Source: Thermoanaerobaculia bacterium (GTDB taxonomy: Bacteria; Acidobacteriota; Thermoanaerobaculia; Multivoradales; UBA5704). Taken from it: a DNA stretch of 64,000 nucleotides. Below the pieces are notes generated by a model. The model saw only the letters and a list, made by a program, of their open reading frames with translations. It was not told the DNA's origin and searched no databases. Positions 5,692 to 59,991 of the stretch are shown piece by piece (within the stretch, counting starts at the first letter, position 1; every line of letters begins with the position of its first letter). A program made the translations under genes and the position numbers. Where the stretch lies: NCBI GenBank assembly GCA_035544875.1, contig DASZZP010000038.1:192185-256184 (forward strand), read 5' to 3'.

Positions 5692-5869
5692 CGCTTCCTC
5701 CTGCGATCGGGACAAGTAGTGACGGCGGATATGCTATAAAGCCATCCAATCTATGTCAATACGCCGTCGCGGCGCCGCGCTGCCCCCGCCGCCGACGCCA
5801 CCGGCGCTACTTGTGAAGCCGTGCTTTCCGGCATAAGTTGAAGCTGTTCTCGCTCGAGGAAGCCCGGCA

Positions 5870-51460: not shown

Positions 51461-52501
51461 TCAGCCAGCCACGCGCCCGAGCTCGAGCAGCACGGCACCG
51501 GTGACATCTTCGGTGCGAGCGCTGCCGCCCAGATCGGGGGTGCGATGGTTGGCGAGGGCGGCGGTCACCGCGCGCTCGACCCGCTCGCCGAGGTCGGCCC
51601 TGCCCAGAGCGTGGGTCAGGAGGAGGGCGGCGGTCAGGATGGCCCCGGTGGGATTGGCGGTGCCGCGGCCGGCGAGGTCGGGCGCGGAGCCGTGCACCGG
51701 CTCGAAAAGGCCGGGCCCCGGCCCCAGCGAGGCGGAAGGGAGGACGCCGATCGAGCCCGCGAGAGCGGCGGCTTCGTCGCTCAGGATGTCGCCGAACAGG
51801 TTCTCGGTCAGCAGCACGTCGAAGCGCCGCGGGTTGCGCAACAGCTCGAAGCTCGCGGCGTCGACGTACAGGTGCTCCAAGGTCACCTCGGGGAAGTCGC
51901 GGCCGACCTCGGTCACCACCCGCCGCCAGAGCCGCGACGCCTCGAGCACGTTGGCCTTGTCGACCGAGGCGACGCGGCGCCGCCGGCCGCGGGCGAGGCT
52001 GAACGCCACCTTCGCCACTGCCCGCACCTCGGCCGCCGTCTGCCGCCAGCTGTTCCATGCCTCCTCGGCGTTGGCGCCGCGCGGCTCGCCGAAGTAGACG
52101 CCGCCCTGGAGCTCGCGCACCACCAGCAGGTCGGCGCCGCGCGCCAGCTCGGGGCGCAGCGGCGTCGGCAGCCCCAGATCGCGCGCCGGCCGCAGGTTGG
52201 CGTAGACCCCGAGCGCGCGGCGCAGGCCGAGCAGCCCCTCCTCCGGCCGCCGCGGCGCCCCGTCCCAGCGCGGCCCGCCCACCGCCCCCAGGAAGACGGC
52301 GTCGCAGCCGGCGCACAGCTCGAGCGTCGCCCGCGGCAGGGGCTCGCCGGCCGCGTCGATCGCCGCGCCGCCGATCAGGCCGCGCCGCAGCCGCCGCACC
52401 GCCGACGGCATCACGGCGCCCAGCACCGACAGCGCCGCTTCCGTCACCTCCGGTCCGATGCCGTCGCCCGGCAGGATCGCCAGGATCGGCCCGCCGCTCA
52501 C
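51461..52501 (-). CDS. leuB: 3-isopropylmalate dehydrogenase
   Basis: ILAILPGDGIGPEV...ANLRP...DLLVVRELQGGVYFG...NLFGDILSDEAAALAGSIGVLPSASL (LeuB/IDH family). GTG start overlaps the leuD stop (GTGA). Confidence 0.9.
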   Translation of the reverse strand: MSGGPILAILPGDGIGPEVTEAALSVLGAVMPSAVRRLRRGLIGGAAIDAAGEPLPRATLELCAGCDAVFLGAVGGPRWDGAPRRPEEGLLGLRRALGVYANLRPARDLGLPTPLRPELARGADLLVVRELQGGVYFGEPRGANAEEAWNSWRQTAAEVRAVAKVAFSLARGRRRRVASVDKANVLEASRLWRRVVTEVGRDFPEVTLEHLYVDAASFELLRNPRRFDVLLTENLFGDILSDEAAALAGSIGVLPSASLGPGPGLFEPVHGSAPDLAGRGTANPTGAILTAALLLTHALGRADLGERVERAVTAALANHRTPDLGGSARTEDVTGAVLLELGRVAG

Positions 52502-53130
52502 CGCTCCGCCGCCGGCCCCGCGGCCGGATCTCCGGCCCCCCTTCGCTCCGCCTCGAAGGCAGCGATCGCCGCCTCTTGGCCGAGCAGGAACTCGAGCTCG
52601 TCGAGCCCCGACAGCAGGCAGTGGCGGGCGAAGCTATCGATCGCGAAGGCGGCCGGCGCGCCGCCGCCGAGGGTGAGGGTCTGCGCCGCCAGATCGAGCG
52701 TCACCTCGCCGCCGGGCTCGGCGAGCAGGCGGGCATGGGCCGCGGCATCCACCTCGACCGCCAGCAGACCGTTCTGGAGGGCGTTGCGGCGGAAGATGTC
52801 GGCCAGCGATCGGGCGAGCACCGCGGCGAAGCCGAAGTCCTGCAGCGCCCAGACCGCGTGCTCCCGCGACGAGCCGCAGCCGAAGTTGCGCCCGGCGATC
52901 AGGATGCGCGCCCCGGCCGCCCCCGGCTGGTCGAGCGGCGAGTCGGGGCGCGGCCCGCCCTGGGCGTCGTAGCGCCAGTCGGCAAAGAGCTTCGTCCCCA
53001 GCCCGTCGCGGGTGGTGACCGTCAGGAAGCGGGCCGGGATGATCTGATCGGTATCCACGTTGTCGGCCGCCAGCACCAGGGTGCGCGAGCGCAGGGTGTG
53101 GAGCGGCTCGCGCCGCACGATTGATTGCAT
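52498..53130 (-). CDS. leuD: 3-isopropylmalate dehydratase small subunit
   Basis: ...VLAADNVDTDQIIPARFL...ILIAGRNFGCGSSREHAVWALQDFGF... (aconitase swivel domain). Confidence 0.9.
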   Translation of the reverse strand: MQSIVRREPLHTLRSRTLVLAADNVDTDQIIPARFLTVTTRDGLGTKLFADWRYDAQGGPRPDSPLDQPGAAGARILIAGRNFGCGSSREHAVWALQDFGFAAVLARSLADIFRRNALQNGLLAVEVDAAAHARLLAEPGGEVTLDLAAQTLTLGGGAPAAFAIDSFARHCLLSGLDELEFLLGQEAAIAAFEAERRGAGDPAAGPAAER

Positions 53131-53207: not shown

Positions 53208-54626
53208 TCACCGCAGCACCTGCCGCGGGTCGGCGATCTTGCCCGCCACCGCCGCCGCCGCCGCGGTCAGCGGGCTGGCCAGGAAGGTGCGGCCGCCCGA
53301 CCCCTGCCGCCCCTCGAAGTTGCGGTTGCTGGTCGACACCGCATACTCGCCCGCCGCCAGCCGGTCGTCGTTCATCGCCAGACACATCGAGCAGCCCGCC
53401 TCCCGCCACTCGGCGCCCGCCTCGCGAAAGATCCGGTCGAGCCCCTCGGCCTCCGCCTGGCGCTTGATCTGCTGCGAGCCGGGGACGACCAGCGCCCGCA
53501 CGCCGGCTGCGACGCGGCGGCCGGCGAAGATGCTTGCGGCCAGGCGCAGGTCCGACAGCCGCGAGTTGGTGCAGCTGCCGATAAACACGACGTCGATCGG
53601 CCACCCCAGCAGCGGCTGACCGGGCGCCAGCCCCATGTAGCGCAGCGCCTTCTCCTGCCCGGCGTCGCCGGCCGGGTCGGGGATGACCCCGCCGATCGGG
53701 ATCCCCATGCCGGGGTTGGTGCCATAGGTGATCATCGGCTCGAGCGCCGCGGCGTCGATCCGCACCGTGCGGTCGAAGCGCGCACCCTCGTCGGAGGGGA
53801 GCGCCCGCCAGCGGCCGAGCGCTGCCTCCCACTCCCGCCCCTGCGGCGCGCCCGGGCGGCCGCTCAGGTACTGATAGGTATGGTCGTCGGGAGCGATCAT
53901 GCCGGCCCGCGCCCCGGCCTCGATCGACATGTTGCACACCGTCATCCGCTCCTCCATCGACAGGGCGCCGGCGCACTCGCCGCGGTACTCGACAGCGAGG
54001 CCGGTGGCGCCGCCGACGCCGATCTGGGCGATCACCCCCAGGATCAGGTCCTTGGCGGTCACTCCCGGCTGCAGGCGGCCGTCGATCTCGACCGCCATGG
54101 TGCGCGGACGGCCGAGCAGCAGGCATTGCGTGGCCAGCACCTGGGCGACTTCGCTGGTGCCGATGCCGAAGGCCAGCGCGCCGAAAGCGCCATGAGTGCT
54201 GGTGTGGCTGTCGCCGCAGACGATGGTCATTCCCGGCTGGGTGAGCCCGAGCTCGGGGCCGATGACGTGCACGATCCCCTGCCTCCCGCTCTCCACGCCA
54301 TACAGGCGGATCCCGAGCTCGGCGCAGTTGCTCTCCAGCGCCGCCACCTGCGCCGCCGCCTGCGGGTCGTGCACCACCAGCCGGCCGCCGGCCGGGCGCG
54401 GCGTGGTGGGGATCGCATGGTCGACTGTCGCCACGGTGCGCTCCGGCCGGCGCACCGGCAGGCCGCGCTCGCGCAGCTGGGCAAAGGCCTGCGGCGAGGT
54501 CACCTCGTGCACCAGGTGGAGATCGACGTAGACCACCGCCGGCGTCTCGGCAGAGGCCGCGCGGACCAGGTGAGCGTCCCAGATCTTGGCAAACAGCGTG
54601 CGCGGCGCTCCGCTGCCGTCCATCAT
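53208..54626 (-). CDS. leuC: 3-isopropylmalate dehydratase large subunit
   Basis: ...[25 protein letters not shown]...[14 protein letters not shown]...[10 protein letters not shown]... (aconitase-family 4Fe-4S ligands). Tandem ATG start at 54626 with a GGAAGG...GGTGGA RBS. Confidence 0.9.
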
Positions 54627-54658
54627 TCCACCGCCTTCCGCCCGGCTCTGTCCGCCCG

Positions 54659-56203
<1,545 letters not shown>

Positions 56204-56227
56204 CGGATCCTCCTCGCAAGCTGTCCA

Positions 56228-56258
56228 TAAAAGCGAAAACCCCCGATCGGTCTCGGGG
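56228..56258 (-). terminator. Intrinsic terminator / putative attenuator hairpin immediately upstream of leuA
   Basis: On the minus strand: cccccga-gaccga-tcggggg (7-bp GC stem, 6-nt loop) followed by ttttcgctttt, 25 nt before the leuA RBS GAGGAGGA. The upstream neighbour is divergent, so this is not a terminator for an upstream gene. Confidence 0.6.
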
Positions 56259-56288
56259 GTTCTCGGCGGAGCGGCTTGAGCGTCGTTG

Positions 56289-56423
56289 CTTAGCGGGCCG
56301 CCGGCCCCCCCGAGATGGAGAGGGTAAGAGCCAGCAGCGCCAGCGACTGGGCAGAGAGGCCCAGCGGCGCCGGCGTCGCGGCGGCGAATCCCGAGCTGCG
56401 GAAGCTTGGCCGGCTAGTGCTCA
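56289..56423 (-). promoter_or_regulatory. Putative Leu-rich leader peptide ORF of a leucine attenuator (44 aa)
   Basis: Minus-strand ORF MSTSRPSFRSSGFAAATPAPLGLSAQSLALLALTLSISGGPAAR* has 7 Leu in a 16-residue stretch. Its TAA stop lies about 30 nt before the terminator hairpin. Confidence 0.35.
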
Positions 56424-56564
56424 TTGGCAGCGCACCCTAAGGCATGCTCCGACACCCTGTCAAGTGTCAGGGGTCGCTTGGTCGCTTGCGCCAGGGGCGC
56501 GCTGAGGCCGAGCCGCGAGCGTCAAGGCGCGCAAGGTGTGTTATGATTGTTATGGAGATGTTCT

Positions 56565-58758
56565 ATGCATAGAGAAGCTTGGATTCGCGCGGCGCGCCTG
56601 GCCCTCCGCCGACTGGCGCTTGCCGCATTCGCCTTCCTCCTGGCGGTGCTCGCAGAGCTCCCGCTGGCGGCGGGGGATGGTGTCTGGACACCGGTCGGTC
56701 CCACCGGCGGTTCGGTGACCGCCCTGGCGATGTCGCCGTCCACGGGGACGATCTACGCGGCGACCGCCAATGGCGGCGTCTTCAAACGAGCAACCAGCCG
56801 CGGCGGCCCCTGGGTCCCGGCGCGCGCCGGGCTGCCCACGAATTTCTACAACGCGGTGCTTGCCCTGGCCCTGGCGCCGGTCACTCCCGACGTGCTCTAT
56901 GCGAGCACCGCGACCGCGCTCTCGCGCTCCGCCGACGGCGGCGCCAGCTGGTCGCGCATTCTCGGCGGAGAGTTCTTCCCCGTGGCGGTCGCCCCACGAG
57001 ACCCGGCGACGGTTTACGTAATTGCCGAAAGCGTCGGCATCGGAAAGAGTACCGACGGCGGAGCCAGCTGGCAGTTCTCGACCCAGGGCCTGACGTTCCC
57101 GTACTTGTTCAATGCGATCGCGGTCGATCCACGCAGCGCGGACACGGCCTACGTGGCCGGCTTCGGCATCGTCTTCAAGACCACGGACGGCGGCGGACAC
57201 TGGACTCCAGCCGGTCCCATGCCGAGATCGCTCGACGTGGCGAGCTTGACGATCGATGCCGCGGACCCCGACACGGTGTACGTGGCGGGCCGGCAGCAGA
57301 TCCTGAGGAGCGCCGATGGCGGCGCGAGCTGGACCGACATCACCCCCGACCCGAATTTCGGCTACGGACCGCTCGCCCTCGCACACTCCCCGGCGGCACC
57401 CTCTTCACCTGGGGCGATCCTCTACGCGGCGGCGGGCCGGTTCCTCTTCGGCAGCCTGAACGGAGGAACCACCTGGACCCGGCAGCACCTGCCCGCGATG
57501 ATCCTGTCCGTCGCGGCCGATCCCGCCGACCCCGGCCACGTCGAGATTGGGCTCGACGGCCTGGGCGTCTGGCGAAGCCTGGATGGCGGACACAGCTGGC
57601 GGCCCGCCAACCGCGGGCTGCGGGCCACGACGGTCACCCTGGTGGCGGCAGACCCGCATGTCTCGGGAAGCCTCTACGTCGCCGACGAGAGCGGCCAGAA
57701 CCACGAGAGCCTGGGCGTGCGGACGAGCCGCGATGGCGGGGTGAGCTGGAGCGCCGCAAGCGGCGGGCCCGCCCTCGCCGGCGGTGACCCTCTGCAAGTC
57801 AGCCGGATCGTCGTCGATCCCCGCCGGGCCGGCGCTCTCTATGCGCTCACCATCTCCGGGCTGTTCGCGAGCGGCGACGGCGGCGCGAGCTGGCAGCGTC
57901 GAGCGGAGAGCCTCGCCGGTCACCTCGACTGGATGCTCGACATGGCTTTCGATCCGCGCAACCCGAACTGGATCTACCTGGTCCGGCCTCACTTTCTACT
58001 GTCCATCCACCGAGCCAGATATCTGCCTTCATCATACGATCACGGTCTACCACGCGGCGCGCAGCCGCGACGGCGGCGCCCACTGGACCATCGTCTCAGG
58101 CGGTCCCTTCGGGCCGCCCGGCGTCGGCGCCGGCAACGGCGCCACCTGGACCTCCATCGCCGTCACCCCGGAAGGCTTCGTCTATGTCGCCGGCTCACAG
58201 CTCGTGTCGAGCCTCGACGGCGGCATCACCTGGCAGCCCATCCACCCGCCGCCGGCAACGACGAGCGCGACGCCCATCGCACGCCTCTTCCTCGCGCCCC
58301 CGCCGCCCGCGGCGAGCAAGACGGCAGGGCTCGGAACCGCGGATGAAGCGGCTCCCTCCGCCGCCGCCGGCGCCAGAACGGCGGCGCGCGAGCTCTACGC
58401 TGTGGTCCCAACCGCGCCGGGCTTTGGCCAGTTCGAGGCGCTCTTCGGCAGCCGCGACGGCGGCCGCAGCTGGAGCGCTGCAGGAGCGGGCCTGCCCGTG
58501 CCCATCCACATCGGAGACCTGGTCACCGCGCCTCCTGCCGCCGCCACGGGCACTCAAGCCCGTCCCTCGTTGGCGCTCTATCTGTCCACCGATCAGGGCG
58601 TCTTCACCGCCGAGCCCGGCCAGAGCTGGCAGCCGCTCGCCGAGGGGCTCGAGGATCTGACCGTCCACTCCCTGGCCGTCGATCCGGCGACCGGCACCCT
58701 CTATGCGGGCACCGAGCGCGCGGGCGGCCTCTTCTCCTTCACGCCGCCGCCGCCGTAG
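56565..58758 (+). CDS. Secreted BNR/Asp-box repeat protein (Ycf48/sortilin-like multi-propeller), reading frame interrupted near 58000
   Basis: Signal peptide MHREAWIRAARLALRRLALAAFAFLLA. At least 10 repeats of the form xxYxxT....S.DGGxSW. Frame 1 (to about 57985) and frame 2 (from about 58020) both carry the repeats. The switch coincides with a 55-nt AT-rich patch. GGAGA RBS before ATG 56565. Confidence 0.6.
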
Positions 58759-59009
58759 CCGGCGCCTCCACTCCACTTGACAGCCGCCCGGGAGCTTCGG
58801 GTAGAGTGTCGTTCTTCTGCAGCTGAGCGCAGAAACCGACTTCAATGCACGGCCGCCGATTTACCTACGCCACCTACATCTGGCGCTTCTCCTTTGCGGG
58901 AGGAGCGGTAGGAGCGGGACCGTGCGCGGGCCCTGGCTCTGCTGGCCCTGAAGGGTGAGAGTGATCCAAGACCAGACAAGCTAAACCGGCGCAGCAGATT
59001 GCAACCCGA

Positions 59010-59050
59010 ACCAGCCGCGACTCCCGCAAGGGATCGCGGCTGGTTTTTTT
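59010..59050 (+). terminator. Strong rho-independent terminator (GNRA-loop hairpin + T8)
   Basis: ccagccgcgac-tccc-gcaa-ggga-tcgcggctgg followed by tttttttt. Lies 33 nt upstream of the DAHP synthase start codon. Confidence 0.7.
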
Positions 59051-59082
59051 TCCTCCGGCCGGCTACCAGGAAAGAGGAAAAG

Positions 59083-59991
59083 ATGCGAACTGAGACCCGC
59101 CCCGACCCGCCGCCCGCCTGCCTGCCGGCGCCCGCCTGCCTGCTCTCCAGCCGGCAAGCCAGGCAGCAACCGACCGTGGTGCGGATGCGAGGAGTCGCGA
59201 TCGGCGGCGGCGCCGTCGCGGTGATCGCCGGTCCGTGCTCCGTCGAGTCGCGCCCCCAGCTCCTGGCCACGGCGCGCGCGGTACGCGCCGCCGGCGCCTC
59301 GATGCTGCGCGGCGGCGCCTACAAGCCCCGCACCTCGCCCTATGACTTCCAGGGGCTGGGGCTCGAGGCGCTGGGGCTGCTGCGCGAAGCGAGCGCCGAG
59401 ACCGGGCTCCCCGTGGTCACCGAGGTGATGGGCACCGAGGACGTCGACATCGTGGCGGATCATGCCGACATGCTGCAGGTCGGTGCCCGCAACATGCAGA
59501 ACTTCCCTCTGCTGCGCTGCCTGGCGCGCATCGACCGCCCCGTCCTGCTCAAGCGCGCTCCCTCGGCCACCATCAAGGAGTGGCTGCTCGCCGCCGAGTA
59601 CCTCCTGGCCGGCGGCAACTCCCAGGTGGTGCTCTGCGAGCGCGGCATCCGCTCCTTCGACACCGAGATGCGCAACACCTTGGACATCGCCGCCGTGGCC
59701 CGGGTGCGTGAGCTCTCCCACCTGCCGGTCATCGTCGACCCCTCGCATGCCACCGGCCGCCGATCGCTGGTCCCCGCCGCCGCCCGCGCCGCCCTGGCCG
59801 TCGGCGCCGACGGCCTGATGATCGAAGTCCATCCCGATCCCGACCGCGCCCTCTCCGACGGTGCCCAGTCGCTCCCCCTGGACGCCTTCGCCCGCCTCAT
59901 GGAGAGCCTCGCCGCTCCGGCAGCGATCTTTCATCCCTCGGGATCGGCACCGCCGGTGGGACCTAAGATCAGAAAGAAGGTGTTGAACTGA
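59083..59991 (+). CDS. aroF: 3-deoxy-7-phosphoheptulonate (DAHP) synthase, type I-beta (KDO8PS-like fold)
   Basis: ...[46 protein letters not shown]...VVTEVMG...[12 protein letters not shown]... AAGAGGA RBS before ATG 59083. Confidence 0.85.

What the first reader, a model, noticed from the sequence alone, without database searches (positions are those of the whole stretch)
56204..56430. Leucine-operon attenuator: terminator hairpin abutting the leuA RBS, preceded by a Leu-rich 44-aa leader ORF
Seen in sequence: the hairpin cccccga/tcggggg plus a U-run lies 25 nt before GAGGAGGA-ATG of leuA. There is no co-directional upstream gene that it could terminate. The ORF 56289..56423 encodes ...LGLSAQSLALLALTLS....

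Established knowledge: leu operons in many bacteria are controlled by ribosome-mediated attenuation using Leu-codon-rich leaders.

Inference: the same mechanism operates here, although the leader is unusually long and its Leu codons are interspersed rather than consecutive.
Basis: partly seen in the sequence, partly recalled or inferred. Interest (0 to 1): 0.5.

Follow-up and report, generated by a model that had tools for sequence, protein, structure and literature searches.

The report
Leucine leader-peptide attenuator before leuA
A short leucine-rich reading frame followed by a terminator hairpin sits in front of the leucine-biosynthesis operon of an uncultured Acidobacteriota bacterium and most likely turns the operon up when leucine is scarce; this is a classic bacterial control device, seen here in a phylum and a sequence family where no Rfam model covers it.

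Summary
The elements, in order:
- a promoter-like TTGACA-18-TAGGGT (56463..56434)
- a 44-codon ORF (56424..56290) that starts 9 nt after the -10 box, with 7 Leu codons within 15 codons
- a G-run in the last codons of the ORF
- 25 nt after the stop, a 12-bp GC hairpin with a U-tract (56264..56227)
- then GAGGAGGA-ATG of leuA, the first gene of leuA-leuC-leuD-leuB

The G-run (56315..56307) pairs with the 5' arm of the terminator (56259..56251). This gives an antiterminator that excludes the terminator and is almost equal to it in energy.

The same layout recurs upstream of leuA, or of ilvB in ilvB-ilvN-(ilvC)-leuA operons, in nine other complete loci: relatives with 66-75% LeuA identity and three more distant bacteria. 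The peptide sequences differ, but the Leu cluster, the G-run, the 20-30 nt from stop to terminator and the promoter-to-start spacing (8 loci checked) are kept. Rfam has no match (no T-box, no Leu_leader).

This is a ribosome-mediated Leu attenuator, a new member of a known kind. The long leader is explained by an ORF that appears to start at or within a few nucleotides of the transcript's 5' end; this is inferred, not shown. A second, aromatic-rich leader lies upstream of the DAHP synthase gene nearby.

The parts
56458..56463 (-). Promoter-like -35 hexamer TTGACA.
   Evidence: The pattern TTGACW-N16-18-TANNNT occurs twice in the 64-kb window against 0.07 expected, and this is one of the two. 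The same geometry is seen in L162, L164, L092, L014, L157, L159 and L168; L074 has a weaker -35, TTGCTG. Function is inferred.
56434..56439 (-). Promoter-like -10 hexamer TAGGGT, 18 nt after the -35 and 9 nt before the leader ATG.
   Evidence: It fits TANNNT only (3 of 6 to TATAAT), so the stricter scan did not list it. Inferred; no transcription start data.
56290..56424 (-). Leader ORF of 44 codons plus TAA: MSTSRPSFRSSGFAAATPAPLGLSAQSLALLALTLSISGGPAAR. No Shine-Dalgarno sequence precedes it.
   Evidence: No Pfam match.
56320..56364 (-). Regulatory Leu codon cluster: codons 21, 23, 28, 30, 31, 33 and 35 (CTG x4, CTC x2, CTT x1).
   Evidence: CTT makes up 1.2% of Leu codons in nine genes of the window.
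56338..56375 (-). Stable stem-loop (8 + 7 bp) that covers the first Leu codons. It may act as a transcription pause or protector hairpin.
   Evidence: Present in the MFE and centroid folds. Its role is inferred only.
56251..56315 (-). Antiterminator. The outer helix pairs 56315..56307 (UCUCGGGGG, codons 37-40 of the ORF) with 56259..56251 (CCCCCGAGA). An inner helix pairs 56303..56298 with 56269..56264. The stop codon (56292..56290) lies inside the loop.
   Evidence: (-39.8 kcal/mol for the local region).
56227..56264 (-). Intrinsic terminator: 5' arm 56264..56253, loop 56252..56247, 3' arm 56246..56235, with the U-rich tract running down to 56227.
   Evidence: -21.2 kcal/mol.
56208..56215 (-). 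Shine-Dalgarno sequence GAGGAGGA of leuA.
   Evidence: Read directly from the sequence.
54659..56203 (-). leuA, 2-isopropylmalate synthase (514 aa).
   Evidence: Pfam HMGL-like, HCS_D2 and LeuA_dimer. The identical protein is annotated in a Thermoanaerobaculia MAG.
53208..54662 (-). leuC (Aconitase family); its start overlaps the leuA stop.
52498..53130 (-). leuD (Aconitase_C).
   Evidence: The start is approximate.
51461..52501 (-). leuB (Iso_dh). Its GTG start overlaps the leuD stop.
   Evidence: The start is approximate.

Best explanation
This is a ribosome-mediated (leader-peptide) transcription attenuator of a leuA-leuC-leuD-leuB operon in an Acidobacteriota MAG annotated as Thermoanaerobaculia.

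Proposed sequence of events:
1. Transcription starts a few nucleotides upstream of, or at, the ATG at 56424.
2. A ribosome translates the 44-codon leader while RNA polymerase moves on.
3. If charged tRNA-Leu is plentiful, the ribosome runs through the seven Leu codons to the stop at 56292..56290. It then occupies the interior of the antiterminator, and its trailing edge abuts the G-run 56315..56307.
4. The segment 56264..56253 is therefore free to pair with 56246..56235. The terminator hairpin and U-tract form, and transcription stops 25-30 nt before the leuA ribosome-binding site.
5. If tRNA-Leu is scarce, the ribosome stalls at codons 21-33, at least 11 nt upstream of the G-run.
6. The G-run pairs with 56259..56251 as soon as that segment is transcribed and before the terminator's 3' arm exists. 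The polymerase then reads through into leuACDB.

Shown here: the ORF and its Leu enrichment, the terminator, the mutually exclusive antiterminator, their geometry, and their recurrence in other bacteria.

Inferred: the promoter and transcription start, translation of the ORF (leaderless or with a 5' UTR of 0-4 nt), the pause hairpin, and the response to leucine.
For: - Leu enrichment is unique among 360 small ORFs of the window, and 11 of 5000 shuffles reach it.
- The terminator is canonical: 12 bp, -21.2 kcal/mol, with a U-tract.
- The antiterminator is part of the MFE fold. The enforced terminator and antiterminator folds score -99.2 and -98.3 kcal/mol.
- The complement to the terminator's 5' arm is stronger than in dinucleotide shuffles in all eight leaders tested: 0-34 of 1000 each (34 for the window; 44 with different flanks).
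- That complement always lies in the last codons of the Leu-rich ORF.
- Two further relatives added give 55 of 1000 (L162) and 826 of 1000 (L164). In L164 folding still gives an antiterminator-type structure.
- The stop-to-terminator distance is 20-30 nt in all ten complete loci.
- The closest relatives keep the design. L161 (82% LeuA identity, leuACDB) has the terminator, but its contig is cut. L162 (75%) and L164 (74%) have a promoter-like motif, an ATG 9-10 nt after the -10 hexamer, Leu-rich ORFs of 41 and 33 aa, and a terminator.
- In relatives where leuA sits inside an ilv operon, the same device lies before ilvB, and the leader mixes Leu, Val and Ile codons (L014; L168).
- The peptide sequences are not conserved outside the Leu cluster and the Gly codons of the G-run, as expected for a regulatory ORF.
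- The TTGACW-N16-18-TANNNT motif has 2 hits in the window against 0.07 expected, and one abuts the ORF.
- Leaderless genes were predicted in all three Acidobacteria genomes analysed in PMC3160421.
- Leaderless Leu leader peptides upstream of leuA are documented by RNA-seq in Streptomyces (PMC8079986).
Against: - There are no experimental data: no transcription start, no ribosome profiling, no Leu-dependent expression.
- The ORF has no Shine-Dalgarno sequence, so its translation depends on the inferred leaderless or very short-leader start.
- The -10 hexamer TAGGGT is weak by E. coli standards, and the stricter promoter scan did not list it.
- Equilibrium folding with a ribosome mask predicts the terminator form in every case. 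The switch therefore rests on a kinetic, co-transcriptional argument that was not simulated.
- A ribosome at the stop codon covers only the last nucleotide of the antiterminator's 5' arm. Prevention of the antiterminator relies on the ribosome sitting inside its loop and inner helix rather than masking the arm.
- Leu codons are mostly the common CTG and CTC, unlike the rare codons of E. coli leuL.
- In L164 the simple arm-to-arm complementarity is not better than chance (826 of 1000).
- The Leu-rich stretch also looks like a transmembrane segment.
Confidence: 0.8

Rival explanations
1. The switch between terminator and antiterminator is real, but a factor other than the translating ribosome sets it: a protein, a tRNA (T-box-like) or a small-molecule riboswitch. 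On this view the Leu-rich ORF is incidental.
For: The ORF has no Shine-Dalgarno sequence. Mutational work cited in PMC1262725 found that the Streptomyces leuA and ilvB leaders do not behave as classical attenuators. The upstream half of the leader contains stable helices.
Against: A permissive Rfam scan (E up to 10) finds no T-box, Leu_leader or other family. Gathering-level scans of the window and of ten related loci find nothing either. Across relatives the RNA upstream of the G-run is not alignable, whereas an open frame with a Leu cluster ending 20-30 nt before the terminator is always kept. The amino-acid content tends to follow the operon, with Leu, Val and Ile mixed before ilvB. An aptamer or protein site would be expected to be conserved in sequence.
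Confidence: 0.08
2. The 44-codon ORF encodes a functional small hydrophobic (membrane) peptide, or the leader is an independent small RNA gene with its own terminator. Its position before leuA would then have no regulatory meaning.
For: LGLSAQSLALLALTLSISGG and its counterparts resemble a transmembrane helix. Attenuator RNAs and leader peptides with functions in trans are known in Sinorhizobium (PMC6614838 and PMC7298713, abstracts).
Against: The ORF has no Pfam match. Peptide length (22-50 aa) and sequence are not conserved apart from Leu and the Gly codons of the G-run. The element is always directly upstream of leuA or ilvB and always ends in a terminator whose 5' arm is complementary to the end of the ORF, though only weakly so in L087 and L164. 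A trans function could exist in addition to attenuation but would not replace it.
Confidence: 0.05
3. Coincidence: a GC-rich hairpin that merely insulates leuA from stray transcription, next to a chance ORF in a 70% G+C genome where Leu and Ala codons are common.
For: High-GC DNA yields many spurious ORFs. Leu makes up about 11% of LeuA residues.
Against: Only 1 of 360 small ORFs in the window reaches this Leu density, and 0.2% of shuffles do. The promoter-like motif is 2 hits against 0.07 expected. The whole arrangement recurs in independent lineages with different sequences.
Confidence: 0.03

Closest known systems
Enterobacterial leu operon attenuator (leuL leader peptide; Rfam RF00512 Leu_leader)
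   Same: Both have a short ORF with Leu codons, alternative antiterminator and terminator hairpins, a U-tract, and then leuA as the first gene of a leuABCD-type operon. Both use the same logic of ribosome stalling when tRNA-Leu is poorly charged.
   Different: There is no match to RF00512 even at E up to 10. From my own knowledge, E. coli leuL has 28 codons with four consecutive Leu codons, three of them rare CUA, and has a Shine-Dalgarno sequence. Here there are 44 codons and seven interspersed, mostly common Leu codons. There is no Shine-Dalgarno sequence, the start codon lies 9 nt after the -10 box, and the gene order is leuA-C-D-B.
Actinobacterial leaderless Leu leader peptides upstream of leuA (Streptomyces lividans LeuL1 MRFGLLLLSCRGEGL; the 'LEU element' of Seliverstov et al. 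2005)
   Same: Both are Leu-rich leader ORFs directly upstream of leuA in a high-GC soil bacterium. In Streptomyces the ORF is transcribed without a 5' UTR (RNA-seq, PMC8079986). The same is inferred here from the promoter spacing.
   Different: The actinobacterial leuA leaders are 15 aa or so and lack a typical intrinsic terminator. Their proposed structure is a pseudoknot in which the Leu codons pair with the leuA Shine-Dalgarno sequence (PMC1262725). The element here has a canonical terminator and antiterminator pair and a much longer ORF.
ilvB and ilvBNC leader-peptide attenuators (Corynebacterium, Streptomyces, proteobacteria)
   Same: Relatives of this organism carry the same device before ilvB-ilvN-(ilvC)-leuA, with mixed Leu, Val and Ile codons (L014 and L168). 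This corresponds to multivalent branched-chain amino acid attenuation.
   Different: In the window the element controls only leuACDB and is enriched in Leu alone (7 Leu, 1 Ile, 0 Val).
T-box leaders of leuA or leuS (Firmicutes and some other phyla)
   Same: Both place a terminator and antiterminator switch upstream of leucine genes, and both sense tRNA-Leu charging.
   Different: No T-box match was found. No specifier loop or T-box sequence is present. An ORF is present instead.

Membership tests
Ribosome-mediated (leader-peptide) transcription attenuator | A short ORF upstream of a biosynthetic operon, enriched in codons of the cognate amino acid. | tested here: met
   The ORF has 7 Leu in 15 codons and is unique among 360 small ORFs of the window; 11 of 5000 shuffles reach this density. 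The operon is leuACDB.
Ribosome-mediated (leader-peptide) transcription attenuator | An intrinsic terminator between the leader ORF and the first structural gene. | tested here: met
   A 12-13 bp stem of -21.2 kcal/mol followed by UUUUCGCUUUU, ending 19 nt before the Shine-Dalgarno sequence.
Ribosome-mediated (leader-peptide) transcription attenuator | An alternative antiterminator helix that excludes the terminator. | tested here: met
   56315..56307 pairs with 56259..56251 and shares 7 nt with the terminator's 5' arm. It is in the MFE fold. The two folds are within 0.9 kcal/mol. The pairing is better than shuffles.
Ribosome-mediated (leader-peptide) transcription attenuator | Geometry: a ribosome stalled at the regulatory codons leaves the antiterminator free, and a ribosome at the stop codon prevents it. 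| tested here: inconclusive
   Codons 21-33 lie at least 11 nt upstream of the antiterminator arm, and the stop codon lies inside the antiterminator loop. A terminating ribosome touches the 5' arm rather than covering it. Equilibrium folds with a ribosome mask always give the terminator. No kinetic simulation was done.
Ribosome-mediated (leader-peptide) transcription attenuator | The ORF, regulatory codons and alternative helices are conserved in relatives while the peptide sequence drifts. | tested here: met
   Seen in L162, L164, L092, L013, L087, L014, L168, L157, L159 and L074, and partly in L161.
Ribosome-mediated (leader-peptide) transcription attenuator | The leader ORF is translated. 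| not testable with these tools
   There is no Shine-Dalgarno sequence. Translation is inferred from a start codon 7-13 nt after a conserved promoter-like -10 hexamer in nine loci.
Ribosome-mediated (leader-peptide) transcription attenuator | Read-through responds to the charging level of the cognate tRNA. | not testable with these tools
   This requires an experiment.
Rfam RF00512 Leu_leader (enterobacterial) | A match to the covariance model. | tested here: not met
   No hit at E up to 10 in 55900..56900, and none at gathering level in the window or in ten related loci.
T-box leader (RF00230) | A match to the covariance model (stem I, specifier loop, T-box sequence). | tested here: not met
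   No hit.
Leaderless leader peptides (as in Actinobacteria) | The transcription start coincides with the start codon of the leader ORF. | tested here: inconclusive
   The distance from the -10 hexamer to the start codon is 9 nt in the window and 7-10 nt in L162, L164, L092, L157, L159 and L074, but 13 nt in L014 and L168. That implies a 5' UTR of about 0-6 nt. No transcription start data are available.

The most novel reading that the evidence does not exclude
The window's element may belong to an uncatalogued class of long (33-50 codon) Leu or branched-chain amino acid leader-peptide attenuators that spans phyla: Acidobacteriota, at least one Lysobacterales gammaproteobacterium, and other uncultured lineages.

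In this class the leader ORF would be translated from a leaderless or nearly leaderless mRNA. The promoter-to-start geometry is fixed (TTGAC[AT]-17/18-TA(G)nnT, then 7-10 nt, then the start codon).

On this reading the first ribosome loads on the 5'-terminal AUG as soon as it leaves the polymerase. The 20 or so non-regulatory N-terminal codons would then serve as a timing spacer, replacing the Shine-Dalgarno-dependent loading and pause-release scheme of the enterobacterial paradigm.
Probability: 0.45. Interest if true: 0.45.

Novelty: new member of a known kind. Interest (0 to 1): 0.3.

Why it matters
[quoted passage not shown] Rfam has no model for this element.

A clear leader-peptide attenuator, conserved across relatives, gives a usable annotation rule for leu and ilv operons in Acidobacteriota MAGs. 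It also shows that coupled transcription and translation is used for regulation in this poorly studied soil phylum.

The conserved spacing between promoter and start codon offers a concrete, testable case of leaderless initiation outside Actinobacteria and Deinococcus.

The mechanism itself is textbook, so the gain is in annotation and taxonomic breadth, not in concept.

Tried and rejected
- **Rfam.** A permissive scan of the region, and gathering-level scans of the whole window and of ten related loci, found nothing above noise. T-box, Leu_leader and other known leaders are therefore rejected.
- **Stricter sigma-70 scan.** It found no promoter in 55900..56900. The TANNNT-type pattern did.
- **Most close relatives.** Most of L001-L016 and L081-L095, plus L163 and L166, have ilvC (ilvN in L014) abutting leuA and so carry no leader at leuA. 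In L167 the operon starts upstream of ilvD, beyond the fetched flank.
- **MAFFT alignment of eight leaders (A1).** It was not in structural register. I did not run pair counting on it and used per-sequence folding and shuffle tests instead.
- **Equilibrium folding with ribosome masks.** It did not reproduce the switch: the terminator won in all states, and some folds paired across the ribosome. This approach cannot decide a kinetic mechanism.
- **N-terminally longer LeuA.** The leuA frame is open up to 56413 but has no start codon upstream of 56203, so this was rejected.
- **Translational reinitiation or coupling role for the leader** (PMC4833913). The stop lies 86 nt from the leuA ATG, far from the 10-11 bp spacing reported there, so this was rejected.
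- **tblastn of the DAHP synthase against the loci already fetched.** No hits.

Full report
**1. What is there**

The finding lies on the minus strand. leuA is 54659..56203 (514 aa; Pfam HMGL-like, HCS_D2 and LeuA_dimer). It is followed on the same strand by leuC (53208..54662), leuD (about 52498..53130) and leuB (about 51461..52501). The gene upstream of leuA is divergent: a BNR/Sortilin-like protein at 56565..58346 on the plus strand. The 361-nt spacer (56204..56564) therefore has no co-directional gene to terminate.

Reading the minus strand 5' to 3', the elements are:
- TTGACA (56463..56458), 18 nt, then TAGGGT (56439..56434)
- 9 nt, then an ATG (56424) that opens a 44-codon ORF ending in TAA (56292..56290)
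- 25 nt, then a hairpin GAGAACCCCCGA/GACCGA/UCGGGGGUUUUC (56264..56235; -21.2 kcal/mol) with the tail GCUUUUAU
- GAGGAGGA (56215..56208), then the leuA ATG (56203)

**2. Is it more than chance?**

- The ORF (MSTSRPSFRSSGFAAATPAPLGLSAQSLALLALTLSISGGPAAR) has 7 Leu in a 15-residue stretch.
- It is the only one of the 360 ORFs of 20-80 aa in the six frames of the 64-kb window to reach that density.
- Only 11 of 5000 shuffles of the leader give any open frame as Leu-dense.
- The pattern TTGACW-N16-18-TANNNT occurs twice in the window against 0.07 expected, and one occurrence is the site abutting the ORF.
- The terminator scan lists the hairpin as one of two sites in the surrounding 1 kb (0.5 expected in shuffles).

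**3. Alternative structures**

- In the MFE fold of the whole leader, UCUCGGGGG (56315..56307; codons 37-40, I-S-G-G) pairs with CCCCCGAGA (56259..56251). An inner helix pairs 56303..56298 with 56269..56264.
- The 3' strand of this helix shares 7 nt with the terminator's 5' arm, so the two structures exclude each other.
- With either structure enforced, the transcript 56427..56227 folds to -99.2 kcal/mol (terminator) or -98.3 kcal/mol (antiterminator). Two nearly equal alternatives are what a switch needs.
- The local antiterminator region alone folds to -39.8 kcal/mol.
- The arm-to-arm complementarity beats 96-97% of dinucleotide shuffles of the upstream sequence.

**4. Relatives**

The identical LeuA is annotated in a public MAG named Thermoanaerobaculia bacterium, on a 350-kb contig. 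The nearest genome and metagenome hits are Vicinamibacteria and other Acidobacteriota at 66-82% identity.

In most of them leuA directly follows ilvC (ilvN in L014), so no leader is expected at leuA. Wherever leuA heads its own transcription unit, the same device is present:
- L161 (82%, leuACDB): the contig is cut 70 nt upstream, but AAACCCCCGAG-agac-CUCGGGGGUUUUUGUUUUU is there.
- L162 (75%): TTGACA-17-TAGGCT, 9 nt, ATG, then MNRFRRSALSAFCSADARAVALMRGFTLLLSLTSPGGRVNL*, then a terminator.
- L164 (74%, leuACD): TTGACT-17-TAGAGT, 10 nt, ATG, then MSRNLAIVPVLPRRSALALGSLLLLTGARGPAI*.
- L092: TTGACA-17-TACCAT, 10 nt, ATG, then ...WLSLGLLLGLFTLLVLGTSGLGGLVA*.
- L013 and L087...LLLSVLLLGA(L/R)G..I*, using the rarer CTT and CTA codons.

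Where leuA is embedded in an ilv operon, the device sits before ilvB, and the leader mixes Leu, Val and Ile:
- L014: MSFPIAARLAGSMRVAVRLSIRLSLLVLGLPCGGAVI*
- L168...RLVLPILVLRGLSIGPGGP*

More distant bacteria show it too: L157, L159 and a Lysobacterales MAG, L074. Shorter, classical Leu leaders occur in Zetaproteobacteria-like loci.

Across the ten complete loci:
- The stop-to-terminator distance is 20-30 nt.
- The terminators fold to -20 to -27 kcal/mol.
- Eight have a G-run complementary to the terminator's 5' arm in the last codons of the ORF; L087 has the same G-run with weaker pairing (6 of 9 columns). The G-run explains the recurring Gly-Gly.
- In one search this complementarity beats shuffles in all eight leaders tested (0-34 of 1000). 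One search adds L162 (55 of 1000) and L164 (826 of 1000). In L164 a weaker, interrupted antiterminator still folds.

The peptide sequences are otherwise unrelated, and MAFFT cannot align the RNA upstream of the G-run. What is conserved is an open frame, the regulatory codons and three mutually complementary segments. That is the signature of a leader-peptide attenuator, not of a protein or an aptamer.

**5. Mechanism**

The shown parts are listed above. The inferred parts are as follows.

(a) Transcription starts 6-10 nt after TAGGGT, at 56424-56428. The leader ORF would then have a 5' UTR of 0-4 nt. It has no Shine-Dalgarno sequence, whereas leuA has a strong one.
- The same spacing of 7-10 nt from the -10 hexamer to the start codon is seen in six other loci; it is 13 nt in the two ilvB-type loci.
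- Leaderless genes were predicted in all three Acidobacteria genomes examined in PMC3160421.
- Leaderless Leu leader peptides are documented in Streptomyces (PMC8079986).
- This would explain the 'unusually long' leader: the ORF has to begin at the 5' end of the transcript, and about 20 non-regulatory codons precede the Leu cluster.

(b) With Leu-tRNA abundant, the ribosome reaches the stop codon, which lies inside the antiterminator loop. The inner helix and loop are occupied, so 56264..56253 pairs with 56246..56235 and transcription terminates.

(c) With Leu-tRNA scarce, the ribosome stalls at codons 21-33, at least 11 nt upstream of the G-run. The G-run captures 56259..56251 before the terminator's 3' arm is made, and the polymerase reads through.

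(d) The stable stem-loop 56375..56338, which covers the first Leu codons, may serve as a pause or protector hairpin.

Caveats:
- Equilibrium folding with ribosome masks always favoured the terminator, so the argument is kinetic and untested.
- A terminating ribosome abuts the 5' arm rather than covering it.
- Most Leu codons are the common CTG and CTC: in nine genes of the window Leu usage is CTG 63%, CTC 33% and CTT 1.2%, and the leader has one CTT.

**6. Comparison with known systems**

- Functionally this is the enterobacterial leu attenuator design. It is not a member of Rfam Leu_leader, nor of any other Rfam family, T-box included.
- It shares the presumed leaderless start with actinobacterial leuA leaders. 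Those lack a canonical terminator and are proposed to act through a pseudoknot that sequesters the Shine-Dalgarno sequence (PMC1262725; PMC8079986).
- I found no paper in the searched library that describes leader-peptide attenuators of leu or ilv operons in Acidobacteria. That is absence in that library only.

**7. Verdict**

This is a new member (a new sequence family, in a new phylum) of a well-known kind of regulator. My confidence that it is a ribosome-mediated Leu attenuator is about 0.8, and about 0.45-0.5 that the ORF is translated from a leaderless or near-leaderless mRNA. Interest is modest (0.3): the finding is useful for annotation and for the question of leaderless initiation, but the mechanism is textbook.

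**8. By-product**

About 2.4 kb away on the plus strand, upstream of a DAHP synthase gene (59083..59991), lies a 37-codon ORF at 58845..58958: MHGRRFTYATYIWRFSFAGG....
- It has 6 aromatic residues in 12, the top of the same 360 small ORFs (the next best has 4).
- It is followed by a -31.7 kcal/mol hairpin and U8 (59008..59051) and then a Shine-Dalgarno sequence.
- A relative, L170, has a homologous leader fragment (...YWPFLPGEAAG...*) and terminator in front of a prephenate-dehydratase/DAHP-synthase pair.
- This DAHP synthase lacks the N-terminal FXD domain (PF18152) that most homologues carry.
- This looks like a second, aromatic amino acid attenuator in the same genome. It adds weight to the view that this organism uses leader-peptide attenuation.

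Noticed in passing
window 58777..59085 (+): A second candidate leader-peptide attenuator lies upstream of the DAHP synthase gene (59083..59991). The ORF 58845..58958, [37 protein letters not shown], has 6 Phe/Tyr/Trp in 12 residues, the highest of 360 small ORFs in the window. A strong terminator follows (59008..59046, -31.7 kcal/mol, then T8), and then GGAAAGAGGAAAAG-ATG. TTGACA-19-TAGAGT lies at 58777..58807, but the ATG is 37 nt downstream of it and has no Shine-Dalgarno sequence. An antiterminator was not convincingly shown (139 of 1000 shuffles as good). The leader and terminator are homologous to L170:1-155, which precedes a PDT/ACT gene plus DAHP synthase.
   Followed up: partly
window 59083..59991 (+): This DAHP synthase (302 aa) and its two closest homologues (P0122, P0123) lack the N-terminal FXD domain (PF18152, as precomputed) found in most of the other top-120 homologues. 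From my own knowledge that domain is regulatory, so control might have shifted to the transcriptional level. That is speculation.
   Followed up: no
window 56565..58758 (+): The BNR/Sortilin-like gene appears split between two overlapping frames (ORFs 56547..58346 and 57784..58758). The tail of the first is Arg-rich nonsense, while the second carries further DGG.SW Asp-box motifs. This suggests a frameshift near 57.9-58.0 kb, either an assembly error or a pseudogene.
   Followed up: no
L168 1440..1690; L014 480..715: In relatives whose leuA lies inside ilv(D)-ilvB-ilvN-(ilvC)-leuA(-leuB) operons, the same promoter, leader and terminator device sits before ilvB. In L168 it lies between ilvD and ilvB. 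The leader there mixes Leu, Val and Ile codons, which suggests one attenuator family reused for different operon contents.
   Followed up: partly
L074 2660..2910; L157 2180..2420; L159 1150..1315; L121, L123, L128, L132, L134, L137, L158, L048, L068, L070, L076: Leu-rich leader ORFs with terminators upstream of leuA are common among the distant LeuA relatives fetched: Lysobacterales, Zetaproteobacteria-like and unassigned metagenome contigs. In L074, L157 and L159 the start codon again lies 7-9 nt after a TAGnnn -10-like hexamer.
   Followed up: partly
window 5731..5759 (-): This is the only other TTGACW-N16-18-TANNNT match in the window: TTGACATAGATTGGATGGCTTTATAGCAT, an AT-rich patch in a 70% G+C genome. 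It was not examined.
   Followed up: no
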